A stretch of DNA of 64,000 nt from Escherichia phage Sa157lw, in the sequence record OK322699.1. The stretch is one strand, 5' to 3'. Shown in pieces: positions 25,251 through 29,859 of the stretch. Within the stretch, counting starts at the first letter, position 1. Each line of letters begins with the position of its first letter. The notes below the pieces were generated by a model that saw only the letters and a program-made list of their open reading frames with translations, was not told the origin of the DNA and did not search any database. The position numbers were made by a program, and so were the translations under genes.

Positions 25251-25285
25251 CAGACAAAAAGAAGCCCGATCGTCCTGATCGGGCT
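25251..25285 (-). terminator. intrinsic terminator at the 3' end of the tRNA cluster
   Basis: Perfect 9-bp stem agcccgatc/gatcgggct with 5-nt loop; minus strand continues tctttttgtc. Confidence 0.55.
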
Positions 25286-25508
25286 ATGTTAAACCATCGT
25301 GGGGATGGAAAGACTACTCACAGCAATTTCTGATAATGGGCGTTGGGAGAGTGCGTCGGGAATCGAACCCGAAATCGTCAGGACGCTGAAAGCTATTTGC
25401 ATTTCACTTGCATATCCTGCGACTTTCTTAACTTCCTTAACCCCAGATTGTTATGAAGTCAGCATGCACACCTTCTTCATCTTCAGGAAGTCACACTCAT
25501 TATTCTGA

Positions 25509-25594
25509 TTGCTTCAACTGGATTCGAACCAGTGACCTCAGGCACCTTGTTCTCTCGAAACTTTCCTGCGCTCTACCACTCGAGCTATGAAGCA
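25509..25594 (-). tRNA. tRNA-like element (canonical acceptor, D-arm and T-arm; anticodon arm does not fold canonically)
   Basis: Acceptor tgcttca/tgaagca, D-arm gctc-gagtggta-gagc and T-arm actgg-ttcgaat-ccagt are textbook, but the 36 nt between cannot be folded by eye. Confidence 0.4.
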
Positions 25595-25597
25595 ATT

Positions 25598-25686
25598 TGG
25601 CGGAAGGTGAAGGATTCGAACCTTCGGGGGCTAAAAGCCCCACTCGATTAGCAGTCGAGTCCCTTAAACCTCTCGGGCAACCTTCC
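25598..25686 (-). tRNA. tRNA-Ser (GCU), type II with long variable arm, CCA encoded
   Basis: Hand fold: acceptor ggaaggt/accttcc, 3-bp D-stem, anticodon arm ctcga-cuGCUaa-tcgag, variable hairpin gggc-tttt-agccc, T-arm gaagg-ttcgaat-ccttc. Confidence 0.8.
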
Positions 25687-25690
25687 AATT

Positions 25691-25774
25691 TGGAGCGGGA
25701 GAACAGGATTCGAACCTGTCCAGTGATCGTCGCCGATGATCAGTCGGCTACTGGCCAACCCCTATGGCTCCCGC
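25691..25774 (-). tRNA. tRNA-like element with GAU anticodon-like loop (possible Ile), non-canonical D region, CCA encoded
   Basis: Perfect acceptor gcgggag/ctcccgc, T-arm acagg-ttcgaat-cctgt, hairpin gccga-cuGAUca-tcggc; extra nucleotide before the 3' acceptor strand and no clean D-arm. Confidence 0.4.
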
Positions 25775-26249
25775 GAAATTTGGACGGGCTTCACACCCGA
25801 TTGAGCATTTGATCTGCCGTAGCCCAACTCCCCGCGCTTCACAGCGCCGATTGGTTAACTGGCGACCAGTGCCTTCTGGTTCGATCTCCTGGAACTTTAC
25901 AGGCTTCGCGCCCGACCATTTCTGGAAGTTGGGGCATCGTTTCCGATGTGGAGTCACCCCATTTTATACACAGCTGGCTGCAACGCTTACTGTGTTTGGT
26001 CTACCGCTACGTGCTGGGCCACGCTCGAGGACATCGGCCATCCTTCCTCAGCTAATCCACGCAGCGGCAGATTTGTATCAGAGTGTCCGGTGTAGCTTTC
26101 CGTGAGGTGCGCACTACTGTAGCCTCTACACTCTGAAATTGTTTGAAGTAGGTCTCACTCCCCTGGGTATCTGTATCCTGCAGCCTTACATTGGCAGCTA
26201 TCGCGCGATTCGCACTTCCGAAGGCGCTTCGAGATACTCTACTTCAATT

Positions 26250-26325
26250 TGGCGACGATGGCAGGACTTGAACCTGCGACATACGATTTAACAGACCGCC
26301 GTTCTACCGACTGAACTACATCGTC
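26250..26325 (-). tRNA. tRNA-Asn (GUU), CCA encoded
   Basis: Hand fold: acceptor gacgatg/catcgtc, D-arm gttc-agtcggta-gaac, anticodon arm gcggt-cuGUUaa-atcgt, T-arm gcagg-ttcaagt-cctgc. Confidence 0.85.
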
Positions 26326-26326
26326 A

Positions 26327-26527
26327 TTATCCGTGCTTGTTTGCTTCAATTGCCCTTAATTGGGCATCAGCGTCAGCTTTGGTGTCATGTGTCCCAAGAA
26401 CCTTCGTCTTGGTGTGGTCAAGGACAACCCACTTGTCGCCTCGCTTTTCAACAAACTCAACAATCTCTTTGTTGTCAGTAGAGAGGCCATCCCACTCAGC
26501 AAGAAACTCACCGAACGTTTTCATCAT
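26327..26527 (-). CDS. small hypothetical protein (67 aa) between tRNA genes
   Basis: ORF fits exactly between tRNA-Asn and tRNA-Met. Confidence 0.3.
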   Translation of the reverse strand: MMKTFGEFLAEWDGLSTDNKEIVEFVEKRGDKWVVLDHTKTKVLGTHDTKADADAQLRAIEANKHG

Positions 26528-26644
26528 ACTCACCAATCGTTTATTGAACAACTGGTTTATTTAGGTGCTCCCGAGGCGGTATTTTAATCCCGCGATCCCA
26601 TCTCGCCTGTCGTAGACCGGAGCATGCTGACAGTCCAACATATT

Positions 26645-26720
26645 TGGTGACCCTGGCTGGACTTGAACCAGCGACCAATCGATTATGAGTCGACTGCTCT
26701 AACCACTGAGCTACGGGGCC
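26645..26720 (-). tRNA. tRNA-Met (CAU; elongator-type or lysidine Ile2), CCA encoded
   Basis: Hand fold: acceptor ggccccg/cagggtc (one C-A mismatch), D-arm gctc-agtggtta-gagc, anticodon arm gtcga-cuCAUaa-tcgat, T-arm gctgg-ttcaagt-ccagc. Confidence 0.75.
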
Positions 26721-26828: not shown

Positions 26829-26943
26829 AATTCATATTGCTGTGGGTAATACCAAAGCGGAGGTTTGGAATCTCTCGCCCTATAGCGACCTTTAAACCGT
26901 TTGATCAGTCCGATCCAAAGGACTACCCACAGCAATATGAATT
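26829..26943. repeat. perfect 20-bp inverted repeat (26829-26848 / 26924-26943) around a 75-nt spacer
   Basis: aattcatattgctgtgggta is the exact reverse complement of tacccacagcaatatgaatt. Confidence 0.9.
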
Positions 26944-27150
26944 TGTTGTGTCCAATCAAGGACTGTCAACCTTTTATCCCGTTTGTGCATGATCAGTTCA
27001 TGCAGGCCTCTTTGTGCGCCTCACAGCAACGCGCTTCTGTAGGTCATTGACTTGCACCGTAGTCTCACCACAGGCGTTTATTTTTCCAGGGCTTTCCACT
27101 TACAAGTCTTAACCAGATCGGGATACGGGCTTGTAAGATCAGATTGGACA

Positions 27151-27228
27151 CAACTTTGATGGCTCTAGGACTAAAGATCCCGCGTCACCCATAGACTTGG
27201 TTTATAAAATCTAGAGCCATCAAAGTTG
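27151..27228. repeat. perfect 18-bp inverted repeat (27151-27168 / 27211-27228) around a 42-nt spacer
   Basis: caactttgatggctctag vs ctagagccatcaaagttg. Confidence 0.9.
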
Positions 27229-27608
27229 CAACCAATGTCGCAACTCGCACTTCAGCGTCTTCGTCTCGCTTCAGCACTTGTCCTCTACGCTCGGACCAAA
27301 CGAGGCTGGCCGACAGAAACATGACACCACTCATCACTAGAGCGAGGATGTGGTTGATAGCCACGATGTTACATCTCTGTCGCAGAGTGATCACACTTGT
27401 CAGGATGATCACTGTTTTGCGAACTTGAAAATACTGCGCCTGTCTCGGGTTTCCCCTTAGTTCGGCCTCTCATTGTTCGTCTAGTCAGGGAGCTACCCTT
27501 GATGACCAGCTTATTTTGAGATCTTCGCCAGCACCCACTAGTGTCTAGAATATGTAGGTGTCGAGGTCTGCAAGGCATTGCCCTATTTCATACAACGCTC
27601 TCTCAAGT

Positions 27609-27744
27609 ACGCAAATCGAAGTTCTCTGGGCTTAACAGGTTCGACCCAACATGTTGTATATCGCCTAACTTGCTCATGGGACGGACACATCTGTGTACAG
27701 ACCTTGAGGGTTAAAAGATATACCCAAAGAACTTCGATTTGCGT
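27609..27744. repeat. perfect 17-bp inverted repeat (27609-27625 / 27728-27744) around a 102-nt spacer
   Basis: acgcaaatcgaagttct vs agaacttcgatttgcgt. Confidence 0.85.
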
Positions 27745-27889
27745 TGTGGGGGCAAACCCCCACACGGCTACTTCTTTGACAGGGATTGCTAGCCCTGGGG
27801 ATTCCACTGTTTAAGGCTTTATCCCATAACGCCTGAGGCGCGTTTTAACTTATTGAGCTTGCATAACTGCAAACTGATGCGCTGTGAGA

Positions 27890-28022
27890 CACATCTTTGA
27901 GGGCACTCAGTGTACAACAGGCTCCGATATTTCATAGGGCATTACTGCCTCGGATTTAAGTTGCCTTTCTCCTGAAACTCCATGCAGTCTCGCGTCTGAC
28001 GCGGAATGCCCTCAAAGATGTG
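27890..28022. repeat. perfect 16-bp inverted repeat (27890-27905 / 28007-28022) around a 101-nt spacer
   Basis: cacatctttgagggca vs tgccctcaaagatgtg; right arm ends at the tgg of the adjacent tRNA-like 3' module. Confidence 0.85.
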
Positions 28023-28146
28023 GAGCCGTTTTAGGGAGTCGAACCCAAATGCTTGGCCAGCGCTGACCTTACATCCCATCTGACTTAGGCAACCCACCTC
28101 TGCTTACTCAGGAGCTTATCCCCTTTGGACAGTCAGATATAACGGC
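28021..28146 (-). ncRNA. tRNA-like 3' module (CCA, acceptor, T-arm) whose only matching 5' acceptor strand is ~120 nt away
   Basis: tgg-a-gccgttt-taggg-agtcgaa-cccaa at 28021-28048; complementary aacggc only at 28141-28146. Confidence 0.25.
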
Positions 28147-28148
28147 TT

Positions 28149-28217
28149 TGGGATTGGAGGAAGGACTCGAACCTTCTCATGTACGCTCCTGATTTCTCAG
28201 AAGTAGCCTGCTCCCAT
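28149..28217 (-). tRNA. short tRNA-like element (about 69 nt with CCA), anticodon arm atypical
   Basis: CCA-discriminator-acceptor attggag, T-arm gaagg-actcgaa-ccttc, 5' strand atgggag (one mismatch); central ctga-gaaa-tcag hairpin has a 4-nt loop. Confidence 0.3.
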
Positions 28218-28434
28218 CGACCTATTAAGTACACGCTCCGCTCATTGTTCGGCGGGAGCTTATTAATCACACCCTCCCGCCTATTGTTAGTGCGCCGAAT
28301 TTTGTTATGAGGAATCGGAAGACCTCACTGGTGTATGGCTATTAAGCTACTGCCAGGAACGTGTTATCATTAGCGATTATTTTTGTGGTCAGTTTCTAAA
28401 AACCCGCAAAGTCACGCACAACGAAAACGAAAAC

Positions 28435-28499
28435 CTGTTTGAGTCCTAAACCTACCTGTCTTGGTCTCACATCGCTATGAGTGGCCAGGACTCAAACAG
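28435..28499. repeat. perfect 13-bp inverted repeat (28435-28447 / 28487-28499) around a 39-nt spacer
   Basis: ctgtttgagtcct vs aggactcaaacag. Confidence 0.8.
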
Positions 28500-29289
28500 C
28501 TTGCCGTTCAGTGAGTTAACTATACTTTGTAACCCGTTATTGATAAAACCTTTTATTTTTGTTGACGAGGGTGTGGAATCGAACCACACTTCTGAGCGCT
28601 GCCCCGTGTCACCAATGCACCACCTCACCATCGATTTGCCGGAACTTACGCATCCGGCCTCGCCTGTTGGTGATCCTTCGAATCCGGGAAGATTAGTAGG
28701 AACTATGAATCAAGTTAATTCGACCAACAGGAATCCTCGTGTTGCCCTTTGACGCAACATTATGAACCCTCTATGAAGACTCATAATGTTGTCGGCGTGA
28801 TGGAGATTAGCGCCCCCGACCTCCCCTTATATGTTGGTGTCGACTTGCCAACGGGGTGCTCTCATTCTTCTGAGCTAATCACGCTACAACAGGGAGTTTC
28901 GTTCTCCGACGGTCAAGTGCGTCCACTGACACCAGCGAGGTGGATGTGACGCCTCTATTCACACAAGCCCCAGAGACTAGGGGTTCACTGTTTTCGGTTT
29001 CAAGCCTACTCACACTGTGCTGTTTCCCTCATGTTTGATACTTTACTGCAAGCCAGCCAATTTGAAAAATCCTCTCCCCTTTGAATTACACTGCCCACAG
29101 CAGTGCGGACGAACCTTCATTCAAAACCGGATGCGCCGAAATGGGCGACTGTGTACCGGACTGATCAGGTCGACCCAGGAGAGAGCAGGTAATCCCGATC
29201 AGGAGGATGAGGAGTAACATCATGTAAAACATAGTGTTCCCTCCCTTCCATGCAACTAACTTTACCGCATTTATTTATTGAATAAAGCG

Positions 29290-29859
29290 TTATTTTATCA
29301 ATTCTAACTTCACAACGCGGCGCAGAAGATAAACATATTCACCAGACGCTTCATGCGACATATAATGTGTAGAAGGGGTGGAATGGTTGTTCTGGGTTTC
29401 TTTTAACCCAACGCGTTCAGCCCAACCATTAATGGAGTTCCCGTAAAACCCGATAATCGCGCCGAAATAAATGCGCTGGCTTTCTGGTTCTAAAATATAG
29501 TTGACAGTGAAGCAGATGTCAGAACGAATAGATTCTAATTTTATACCAACCCGACCTTCAGAGAATTCGTTGCGAACATACAAATGACGAAAACGATCGC
29601 GCCGCGCTTGTGATGACTCTTCCAATTCTTGGCGAAGTGAGGATGTTGCATCGATATTAAATGAAAATGTCGGGTTTTGTAGATCGGTACGGGCTAACTC
29701 TAATGCTGATTCAACAACACGGCGGTAATTAATATTTTTGCCAGTCAGACGTTTCACTTCTTCTGTAATTGTTCCGAAAGGAATTTTTGTAGCACGTTCC
29801 CCTTCGTATTTTGCTAACAAAGGAATGATGTGTTTCATTATTGCTGTATTAATGTGCAT
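29290..29859 (-). CDS. hypothetical protein (189 aa)
   Basis: Intact minus-strand ORF at the edge of the non-coding region, divergent from the structural module. Confidence 0.45.
   Translation of the reverse strand: MHINTAIMKHIIPLLAKYEGERATKIPFGTITEEVKRLTGKNINYRRVVESALELARTDLQNPTFSFNIDATSSLRQELEESSQARRDRFRHLYVRNEFSEGRVGIKLESIRSDICFTVNYILEPESQRIYFGAIIGFYGNSINGWAERVGLKETQNNHSTPSTHYMSHEASGEYVYLLRRVVKLELIK

What the first reader, a model, noticed from the sequence alone, without database searches (positions are those of the whole stretch)
27609..27744. Perfect 17-bp inverted repeat around a 102-nt spacer containing a T-arm-like motif
Arms acgcaaatcgaagttct / agaacttcgatttgcgt. The spacer contains caggttcgaccc, and a small gggggcaaaccccc hairpin follows at 27748-27761, so a larger structured RNA is plausible.
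Basis: seen in the sequence. Interest (0 to 1): 0.55.

Follow-up and report, generated by a model that had tools for sequence, protein, structure and literature searches.

The report
Conserved long-stem phage RNA module
The inverted repeat is real and is the closing stem of a conserved, Y-shaped non-coding RNA on the opposite strand, one of about seven long hairpins in the gene-free stretch beside the tRNA genes of ViI/CBA120-like (Ackermannviridae) phages; it matches no described RNA family and its function is untested.

Summary
Perfect 17-nt arms lie at 27609-27625 and 27728-27744, extending to 22 nt, or 23 bp on the minus strand where the single mismatch becomes a G.U pair. The window is a Kuttervirus, a ViI/CBA120-like Salmonella phage. 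The hairpin lies in the ORF-poor tRNA region, in the same orientation as the tRNAs. Orthologues exist in Kuttervirus, Taipeivirus, Agtrevirus and RPN242-like phages. All keep a 21-27 bp stem; 8 of 20 pairs show compensatory double changes, and G.U pairs far outnumber A.C pairs. This points to an RNA read from the minus strand, not the plus strand. The 'T-arm' motif is on the antisense strand, is not conserved and occurs at chance frequency. No tRNA or Rfam family matches. The element is one of about seven long hairpins (17-26 bp) packed into 26829-28791. Sister stems survive in relatives where their interior is deleted, so the double-stranded RNA itself appears to be selected. My best inference, untested, is that these are RNase III-type processing stems that punctuate a polycistronic tRNA/ncRNA precursor, and that this one also carries a conserved three-way-junction core. 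The closest analogues are the T4 stable RNAs RNAC and RNAD, whose function is unknown. It is a new RNA family of a known kind, of moderate interest.

The parts
27722..27744 (-). P1 5' strand of the long closing stem (ACGCAAAUCGAAGUUCUUUGGGU)
   Evidence: locate it. It pairs with 27609-27631. Covariation is shown.
27609..27631 (-). P1 3' strand (GCCCAGAGAACUUCGAUUUGCGU). Its last 7 nt also belong to the closing stem of the next domain.
   Evidence: locate it. The stem is 21-27 bp in all 20 distinct orthologues.
27632..27721 (-). Conserved core of about 90 nt, forming a three-way junction. Arm A is a UUAACC...GG hairpin extended by an xCAC/GUGx helix, about 27716-27667. The junction strand GGCGAUA..ACAA lies at 27665-27651. 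Arm B (P4) is a hairpin with a GGG loop at 27655-27634.
   Evidence: Invariant columns are listed. P3 and P4 are predicted independently in each clade with compensatory changes. The detailed pairing of the interior remains uncertain.
27745..27764 (-). Small 8-bp G/C hairpin (UGUGGGGG-UUUG-CCCCCACA) that abuts P1 on its 5' side. It is an optional neighbour.
   Evidence: locate it. It is present in some Kuttervirus genomes and in Agtrevirus, with a different loop. It is absent from Taipeivirus and bering-type Kuttervirus.
27416..27615 (-). Next domain (D4b). It is closed by UUUGCGUACUUGAGAG (27615-27600) pairing with UUUUCAAGUUCGCAAA (27431-27416), which re-uses the end of the P1 3' strand.
   Evidence: locate it. 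In Taipeivirus the MFE fold stacks the two helices end to end. The third strand co-varies with the P1 arms in Agtrevirus.
26829..28791 (-). Array of sister long hairpins on the same strand. HP1 is 28791-28755, HP2 28508-28426, HP3 28022-27890, HP4 (this finding) 27744-27609, HP5 27382-27311, HP6 27236-27143 and HP7 26943-26829.
   Evidence: locate them. HP6 covariation affects 6 of 23 pairs. Mismatches are G.T 54 against A.C 15.
25509..26720 (-). Co-oriented tRNA genes downstream: Met 26720-26645, Asn 26325-26250, Ile 25774-25691, Ser 25686-25598 and a degenerate tRNA 25594-25509.
25263..25285 (-). Strong intrinsic terminator-like site at the end of the tRNA/ncRNA unit.
   Evidence: 9-bp stem with 6 G-C pairs, followed by TCTTTTTGTC.

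Best explanation
The inverted repeat is the closing helix (P1, 21-27 bp) of a roughly 136-nt Y-shaped non-coding RNA module. The module is transcribed from the minus strand as part of a long, ORF-free tRNA/ncRNA transcription unit of Ackermannviridae phages. That unit runs from downstream of the phrog_3788 gene, through 26.7-29.1 kb and the tRNAs, to the terminator at 25263.

**Shown:**
- The structure is under purifying selection at the RNA level.
- It is single-copy, syntenic and specific to this phage family.
- It belongs to an array of about seven stems, each roughly two helical turns long.

**Inferred mechanism:** The near-perfect two-turn stems are double-stranded-RNA processing signals, most likely for host RNase III. 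They would cut the polycistronic precursor into separate stable RNAs: tRNA-like modules, conserved domains and tRNAs. For this module, cleavage in P1 would release a hairpin-capped three-way-junction core with its conserved GGCGAUA..ACAA junction strand. It would also free the lower 3' strand to close the next domain (D4b).

What the released core does is not known.
For: **Identity and context**
- The window is a Kuttervirus, 98% identical to Salmonella phage vB_Hercules_SET.

**RNA-level selection**
- In P1, 8 of 20 pairs have changes on both sides and 97.9% of cells are paired. No shuffle out of 500 reached the observed values, and slid controls fall to 21-49% paired.
- All 20 distinct orthologues keep 21-27 bp.
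- G.U pairs outnumber A.C pairs 35 to 5 in P1 and 54 to 15 over all long repeats in the region.
- Stems are longer on the minus strand at every locus.

**Not coding**
- Indels of 1, 2, 5 and 9 nt separate the clades inside the element.

**Transcription unit**
- The tRNAs are co-oriented.
- There is one strong terminator, at 25285-25263, and no convincing internal terminator.

**The stem itself is selected**
- HP3 keeps a 19-23 bp stem whether its interior is 4, 48-50 or 85-96 nt.
- HP6 keeps 19 bp with a 4-nt loop in Limestonevirus.
- The D4b stem persists with a 24-28 nt loop in phage May.
- Stem lengths of 17-27 bp match the roughly two-turn double-stranded RNA that E. coli RNase III needs (established knowledge).

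**Placement and precedent**
- Hairpins abut other modules with no linker. HP3 starts at the CCA of a tRNA-like module, and HP7 starts 2 nt after domain D6b.
- T4 makes the stable RNAs RNAC and RNAD from its tRNA cluster.
Against: - There are no expression or cleavage data. No RNA-seq study of these phages was found.
- RNase III sequence determinants and antideterminants were not evaluated.
- This module, unlike HP3 and HP6, never loses its interior, and the interior has invariant nucleotides. P1 could therefore simply clamp a functional core.
- Seven RNase III sites in about 2 kb is more than processing alone would seem to require.
- G.T asymmetry would also arise if the non-template DNA strand folded.
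- Limestonevirus and Miltonvirus-like phages lack this module, so it is not essential to the family.
Confidence: 0.45

Rival explanations
1. It is a stable small RNA whose long 5'/3' helix is a protective clamp and is not cleaved. The conserved three-way-junction core would be the active part, binding a phage or host protein or RNA.
For: - The core has many invariant positions: CUUAA.CC, GGCGAUA, ACAA and a GGG loop.
- The core is retained in every clade that has the element.
- Its shape recalls RNAs with a terminal helix and a functional junction.
- T4 RNAC and RNAD are stable RNAs from a tRNA cluster.
Against: - A clamp does not need 21-27 near-perfect pairs.
- Sister stems persist without any cargo.
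- There is no excess of antisense targets for the core in this 64-kb window: 9 complementary 10-mers against about 10 expected.
Confidence: 0.25
2. It is one domain of a single very large multi-domain RNA of about 2.3 kb, a functional analogue of the phage-associated GOLLD and ROOL RNAs that lie near tRNA genes. The long helices would act as architectural struts.
For: - Modules abut without linkers and share strands, in an A / A' / A'' arrangement at HP4-D4b and HP6-D6b.
- Several segments are 90-100% conserved across genera whose neighbouring protein is only 62-69% identical.
Against: - Modules are gained and lost independently. HP7, the D4b interior, the HP3 interior, this module and an STnc100-like insert all vary.
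- Linkers are hypervariable and homology breaks at module ends.
- Rfam finds no GOLLD or ROOL match.
Confidence: 0.12
3. The array consists of double-stranded-RNA decoys or sponges. These could titrate RNase III or another host factor that binds or senses double-stranded RNA, as a counter-defence.
For: Selection acts on the double-stranded stems themselves, and there are many of them in a presumably abundant tRNA-operon transcript.
Against: This is purely inferential. No partner protein was identified. The adjacent conserved proteins have no recognisable RNA-related domain.
Confidence: 0.08
4. It is a DNA-level element, such as a cruciform or single-strand hairpin serving replication, recombination or packaging.
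For: - It is a perfect palindrome-type repeat.
- Mosaic breakpoints coincide with the arm end.
- Several deposited genomes are numbered from this neighbourhood.
Against: - There is a strong strand-asymmetric excess of G.T over A.C.
- The interior is conserved.
- The element is co-oriented with the tRNA genes.
- The start points of those records are arbitrary.
Confidence: 0.05
5. It is a tRNA-like RNA or a degenerate tRNA.
For: - A GGTTCGA motif is present.
- Genuine tRNA-like modules with T-arms do exist nearby on the minus strand, at 28039, 28167 and 28579.
Against: - The motif is on the antisense strand.
- It is not conserved.
- It occurs at chance frequency.
- ARAGORN and Rfam are negative.
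Confidence: 0.02

Closest known systems
Phage T4 stable RNAs RNAC (species 1) and RNAD (species 2)
   Same: They are small, stable, structured non-coding RNAs encoded inside the tRNA cluster of a T4-related myovirus, co-oriented with the tRNAs. Their function is still unknown.
   Different: There is no sequence or model similarity: model R1 scores at most 10 bits on the T4 region. RNAC folds as a tRNA-like RNA with a T-arm and acceptor end, whereas this module has a 21-27 bp closing helix and no T-arm. The Ackermannviridae region is far larger, at about 2.3 kb with many modules.
RNase III processing hairpins (T7 early-region sites; rRNA precursor stems)
   Same: They are double-stranded helices about two turns long, placed between functional units of a polycistronic transcript. 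The host is an enterobacterium that has RNase III (established knowledge).
   Different: Cleavage has not been demonstrated here. T7 sites carry internal loops and separate mRNAs. These stems are near-perfect, separate non-coding modules, and this one encloses a conserved junction core.
phi29 pRNA and bacterial Y RNAs (YrlA)
   Same: The resemblance is in overall shape only: a long helix formed by the 5' and 3' ends, plus a multi-branch functional domain.
   Different: There is no Rfam match at E <= 10. The sense strand has no T-arm-type tRNA mimic. The packaging system is T4-type rather than phi29-type. A search for rsr/Ro was not done.
STnc100 / PasD prophage sRNAs (RF02076)
   Same: A member of this family occupies the same ncRNA island in Taipeivirus, between D4b and HP6. 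The island therefore hosts exchangeable sRNA modules.
   Different: It is a different module. The window has no STnc100 match, and HP4 is unrelated to it.
GOLLD and ROOL large phage RNAs
   Same: They are phage-borne, lie next to tRNA genes, are ornate, and have unknown function (established knowledge).
   Different: There is no model match. This region is modular, with independent gain and loss of modules.

Membership tests
tRNA / tRNA-like (RF00005, ARAGORN) | Cloverleaf with a T-arm (GTTCRANYC loop) and an acceptor stem on the transcribed strand | tested here: not met
   ARAGORN and Rfam at gathering score and at E <= 10 find nothing at 27600-27770. The GGTTCGA motif is antisense and not conserved.
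Any Rfam 15 family | Covariance-model score at or near the gathering threshold | tested here: not met
   No hit overlaps 27600-27770 even at E <= 10.
RNase III substrate | Uninterrupted double-stranded RNA helix of about 20 bp or more | tested here: met
   The stem is 23 bp in the window and 21-27 bp in all 20 distinct orthologues.
RNase III substrate | Absence of antideterminant base pairs in the proximal and distal boxes | not tested
   The cleavage register is unknown, so the rules could not be applied reliably.
RNase III substrate | rnc-dependent cleavage in vivo or in vitro | not testable with these tools
   This needs experiments.
T4 RNAC/RNAD-type stable RNA | Encoded within the phage tRNA cluster on the tRNA strand | tested here: met
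T4 RNAC/RNAD-type stable RNA | Sequence or structure homology to RNAC or RNAD | tested here: not met
   Model R1 with filters off scores at most 10 bits on the T4 tRNA region. The folds differ.
Intrinsic terminator | G+C-rich hairpin followed by a U-run | tested here: not met
   The scan lists no site at 27600-27770 on either strand, and no T-run follows either hairpin.
MITE or other mobile inverted-repeat element | Multiple dispersed copies and variable insertion sites | tested here: not met
   There is one copy per genome, always syntenic. E. coli genomes hold no copy. The array modules are not paralogous, with best z = 3.6.
Protein-coding small ORF | Reading frame preserved among relatives | tested here: not met
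   Indels of 1, 2, 5 and 9 nt inside the element separate the clades.
Bacterial Y RNA (YrlA) | tRNA-like domain, a Ro-binding helix and a linked rsr gene | tested here: inconclusive
   There is no Rfam hit and no T-arm on the sense strand. The presence of an rsr gene in the phage was not examined.

The most novel reading that the evidence does not exclude
Ackermannviridae phages carry a roughly 2.3-kb 'hairpin array'. It would be a dedicated locus of at least seven double-stranded RNA stems of two helical turns each, kept by selection even when their cargo is lost. This locus would act as a programmed double-stranded RNA system: either a bacterial-virus analogue of a clustered pre-small-RNA locus processed by RNase III, or a double-stranded RNA decoy against a host factor. 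HP4 would be its cargo-bearing member, and strand re-use (A / A' / A'') would couple cleavage of one module to folding of the next.
Probability: 0.2. Interest if true: 0.8.

Novelty: new member of a known kind. Interest (0 to 1): 0.55.

Why it matters
ViI/CBA120-like phages are widely used as biocontrol and therapy candidates against Salmonella, E. coli O157 and Klebsiella. Their '2 kb region with no genes' has been unexplained since 2011.

This analysis shows that the region is a dense set of RNA structures supported by covariation. Parts of it are more conserved than the neighbouring proteins. That gives annotators a concrete RNA family to add.

It also gives experimenters a defined target. 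Strand-specific RNA-seq, rnc hosts and compensatory mutants could show what the stable RNAs that phages co-transcribe with their tRNAs actually do. That question has been open since T4 RNAC and RNAD were described.

Tried and rejected
- **tRNA or T-arm reading: rejected.** The motif is antisense, not conserved and at chance frequency, and ARAGORN and Rfam are negative.
- **Known RNA family: none.** There is no match at E <= 10. STnc100 matches only a different module, and only in Taipeivirus.
- **Terminator: rejected**.
- **Coding ORF: rejected.** Indels that break the reading frame separate the clades.
- **Mobile element or repeat family: rejected.** The element is single-copy and syntenic, E. 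coli genomes hold no copy, and the modules are not paralogous.
- **Antisense targets of the core within the 64-kb window: no enrichment**.
- **Wider homologues.** IMG/VR and metagenome scans seeded with the neighbouring phrog_3788 protein returned only known Ackermannviridae-type genomes.
- **Neighbouring proteins.** PHROGs, Pfam and a PDB sequence search gave no RNA-related function.
- **Literature.** No transcriptome or ncRNA study of these phages was found.
- **Interior pairing.** The consensus fold is only partly resolved. MAFFT misaligns arm B, and alternative pairings for the CC/GG segments could not be told apart.
- **Loop-loop CCC/GGG contact.** A pRNA-like kissing interaction was considered, but both triplets are invariant, so covariation cannot test it.

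Full report
**1.

The sequence contains perfect 17-nt arms at 27609-27625 and 27728-27744, separated by 102 nt. The repeat extends to 22 nt with one mismatch. Read on the minus strand, that mismatch is a G.U pair, and the helix has 23 contiguous pairs, 27744-27722 with 27631-27609.

The motif caggttcgaccc (27636-27647) and the GGGGGCAAACCCCC hairpin (27748-27761) are also present. The small hairpin is really an 8-bp stem at 27745-27764 that abuts the long stem with no linker.

Chance does not explain the repeat. The 64-kb window has seven perfect inverted repeats of at least 13 nt with a loop of at most 200 nt, against a mean of 0.13 in Markov simulations. Six of the seven lie within 26829-28499. 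Fold z-scores are -7.7 on the minus strand and -6.7 on the plus strand.

**2. Genomic context**

The window is a Kuttervirus (Ackermannviridae; ViI/CBA120-like). The 4.5 kb around the finding are 98% identical to Salmonella phage vB_Hercules_SET and 91-97% identical to CBA120, SFP10, PhaxI and others.

The hairpin lies in an ORF-poor stretch of about 4 kb. The features on the minus strand are:

- the phrog_3788 gene, function unknown, at 29290-29859, and a 48-codon lipobox ORF at 29086-29232;
- about 2.3 kb with no credible gene;
- tRNA-Met, Asn, Ile and Ser, plus a degenerate tRNA;
- a strong terminator-like site at 25285-25263.

[quoted passage not shown] No transcriptome or ncRNA study of these phages was found.

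**3. Comparative evidence**

blastn finds the element in 242 phage records. All are Ackermannviridae-type genomes, at 95-100% identity in Kuttervirus and about 72% in Klebsiella Taipeivirus.

A covariance model built from 12 representatives finds exactly one sense-strand copy per genome in Kuttervirus, Taipeivirus, Agtrevirus and RPN242-like phages, at 101-163 bits. It finds none in Limestonevirus. In Miltonvirus-like phages it gives only generic long-hairpin matches, at similar scores on both strands. E. coli genomes have no copy.

The arms differ between clades but always pair:

| Clade | Arm sequence |
|---|---|
| Kuttervirus | ACGCAAAUCGAAGUUCUYUGGGU |
| Taipeivirus | CACAAAUCGAAGUGCCYUGAC |
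| Agtrevirus | CGCAAAGURGAGUCCUCUGGAC |

- Of 20 P1 pairs, 8 show changes on both sides and 97.9% of cells are paired.
- None of 500 shuffles reached the observed values.
- Sliding the partner by 1-3 columns drops pairing to 21-49%.
- All 20 distinct sequences keep 21-27 bp.

**4. The functional strand is the minus strand, at the RNA level**

Non-Watson-Crick positions in P1 are G.U on the minus strand in 35 cells, against 5 A.C cells. Across all long repeats in the region the count is G.T 54 against A.C 15. Every shared locus gives a longer stem on the minus strand than on the plus strand: 25 against 21 pairs, 25 against 19, 24 against 21 and 20 against 18.

This strand is the one that carries the tRNAs. 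Together with the lack of an internal terminator, it makes a minus-strand transcript the parsimonious reading. A folded non-template DNA strand cannot be formally excluded.

Coding is excluded, because indels of 1, 2, 5 and 9 nt separate the clades inside the element.

**5. Anatomy**

P1 closes a core of about 90 nt that is conserved beyond what pairing requires. Invariant positions include UUAA.CC, GG, GGCGAUA, ACAA and GGG.

Independent folds of each clade agree on a three-way junction:

- **Arm A** is a UUAACC...GG hairpin extended by an xCAC/GUGx helix, with C-G to U-A exchanges.
- **The junction strand** is single-stranded and reads GGCGAUA(N)ACAA.
- **Arm B** is a short hairpin whose stem changes between clades (GUU/AAC, GUUG/CAAC, UAU/AUA, AUGA/UCAU) while its loop keeps GGG.

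The exact interior pairing is not settled.

It is not conserved, and the heptamer is at chance frequency. ARAGORN and Rfam, down to E <= 10, find nothing here.

**6. The hairpin is one of an array**

Allowing G.U pairs, the minus strand carries the following hairpins:

| Hairpin | Window coordinates | Stem |
|---|---|---|
| HP1 | 28791-28755 | 17 bp |
| HP2 | 28508-28426 | 18-23 bp |
| HP3 | 28022-27890 | 19-23 bp |
| HP4 (this finding) | 27744-27609 | 21-27 bp |
| HP5 | 27382-27311 | 20 bp |
| HP6 | 27236-27143 | 23-26 bp |
| HP7 | 26943-26829 | 22-25 bp |

The orthologues of HP2, HP3, HP6 and HP7 show compensatory changes; HP6 has double changes in 6 of 23 pairs. The modules are not paralogues of one another.

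The most informative result is that the stems outlive their interiors:

- HP3 keeps its stem with a 4-nt loop (RPN242, P01), a 48-50 nt interior (SKML-39, May) or an 85-96 nt interior (Kuttervirus, Magnus).
- HP6 is a 19-bp stem with a 4-nt loop in Limestonevirus.
- The D4b closing stem persists with a 24-28 nt loop in phage May.

Selection therefore acts on the two-turn double-stranded RNA helices themselves.

The modules abut one another. HP3 begins at the CCA of a tRNA-like module, and HP7 begins 2 nt after domain D6b. The 3' strand of HP4 is re-used as the 5' strand of the stem that closes the next domain (27615-27600 with 27431-27416). Its third partner co-varies with the HP4 arms in Agtrevirus, and in Taipeivirus the two helices stack end to end in the MFE fold. 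The same three-strand layout recurs at HP6/D6b.

Linkers between modules are hypervariable, and homology among Kuttervirus genomes breaks exactly at the arm end, 27744-27746.

**7. Most likely mechanism (inferred)**

A long untranslated precursor carrying tRNAs, tRNA-like RNAs and conserved domains would be punctuated by near-perfect helices of two turns. These are the classical substrate of RNase III in enterobacteria. Cleavage would separate the modules.

For HP4, cleavage would leave a hairpin-capped junction core. It would also release the lower 3' strand to close domain D4b.

I put about 0.9 on 'functional minus-strand structured RNA' and about 0.45 on the RNase III punctuation mechanism. 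The rivals are:

- a non-cleaved stabilising clamp around a functional core (0.25);
- a domain of one giant RNA (0.12);
- a double-stranded RNA decoy (0.08);
- a DNA-level element (0.05);
- a tRNA-like RNA (0.02).

**8. Comparison with known systems**

The nearest precedent is T4, which makes the stable RNAs RNAC and RNAD from its tRNA cluster. Their roles are still unknown. RNAC folds as a tRNA-like RNA with a T-arm, much like the tRNA-like modules elsewhere in this region. HP4 has no similarity to either T4 RNA.

The T7 and rRNA RNase III sites are the mechanistic analogue. phi29 pRNA and Y RNAs resemble HP4 only in outline. GOLLD and ROOL share only the association with phages and tRNAs.

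HP4 meets no family definition that I could test, so I file it as a new RNA family of a known kind.

**9. Verdict**

This is a genuine, selected RNA structure that is undescribed in the libraries searched. Interest is moderate (0.55). The locus as a whole is more interesting than this single hairpin.

Noticed in passing
window 26945-27154 (minus strand; core 26958-27142): There is an ultra-conserved non-coding domain (D6b, about 185 nt) closed by a perfect 13-bp long-range stem, 27154-27142 with 26957-26945. It is 91% identical even in Dickeya Limestonevirus, where the neighbouring protein is only about 68% identical. Rfam has no match.
   Followed up: partly
window 28742-28941 (minus strand): A second ultra-conserved non-coding block is 88-100% identical across Kuttervirus, Taipeivirus and Agtrevirus. 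It includes a cloverleaf-like element (about 28884-28797) with a 7-bp acceptor-type stem GCGUGAU/AUCACGC and a D-arm-like UAGCUCAG...GAGAGC. It has no canonical T-loop, and ARAGORN and Rfam do not call it.
   Followed up: partly
window 28022-28147, 28150-28218, 28563-28739 and about 25345-25440 (minus strand): These are tRNA-like modules with a genuine T-arm (GGUUCGAnUCC), a 3' acceptor strand and in some cases an encoded CCA. They carry large insertions, for example 125 nt from GCCGUUA to AAACGGCUCCA. They resemble T4 RNAC in design and are missed by tRNA finders. Two of them are absent from other genera.
   Followed up: partly
window 25509-25594 (minus strand): This is a tRNA (Rfam 48.7 bits) with about 13 extra nucleotides in the anticodon-loop region. 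ARAGORN misses it. It matches the 'degenerate tRNA of undetermined specificity' noted for CBA120.
   Followed up: no
L003 2459-2673 (-), L020 7729-7942, L023 7786-8000: Taipeivirus phages carry a match above the gathering score to the prophage sRNA family STnc100 (RF02076, 49-54 bits). It lies in the same ncRNA island, between the D4b domain and HP6. The Kuttervirus window has no such match.
   Followed up: partly
window 27416-27615 and 26945-27236: A three-strand layout (A, A', A'') occurs twice. The 3' arm of a long hairpin can also pair with a downstream near-copy of the 5' arm, closing the next domain. The third strand co-varies with the arms in Agtrevirus, which suggests strand exchange or coaxial stacking between neighbouring modules.
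   Followed up: partly
window 27744-27889: This is a hypervariable linker. In many Kuttervirus genomes (bering, phage 38, EP75, SJ2 and others) homology stops exactly at the arm end (27744-27746), and about 145 nt, including the G5/C5 hairpin, are replaced by an unrelated segment of about 48 nt.
   Followed up: yes
window 28519-28546 (minus strand): A sigma-70-like promoter match (TTATCA-16-TATAGT) sits in a 92%-conserved A/T-rich segment just upstream of HP2. It may be an internal promoter of the ncRNA region. The number of promoter-like sites in the region is at chance level.
   Followed up: no
L021 6473-6763 (Serratia phage KNP4); L043, L044: Miltonvirus-like phages lack HP4 but have three different long hairpins (25, 22 and 19 bp; loops 25-39 nt) at the equivalent position. 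One arm (CAUAACUGAGAGGG) resembles the HP3 arm variant CACAUCUGAGAGGG.
   Followed up: no
phage database records MN871475.1 and OR844942.1: Records named 'Pseudomonas phage Pa-sanjiao' and 'Enterococcus phage Efm 3-10' are 98.8% identical to this Kuttervirus region. Their host labels look doubtful.
   Followed up: no
MT074476.1 156765-156785; MT074472.1 198-219: Two deposited Kuttervirus genomes (kage and bering) annotate the left arm of this inverted repeat as a 'repeat_region' with no further comment. The repeat had therefore been seen before but not interpreted.
   Followed up: yes
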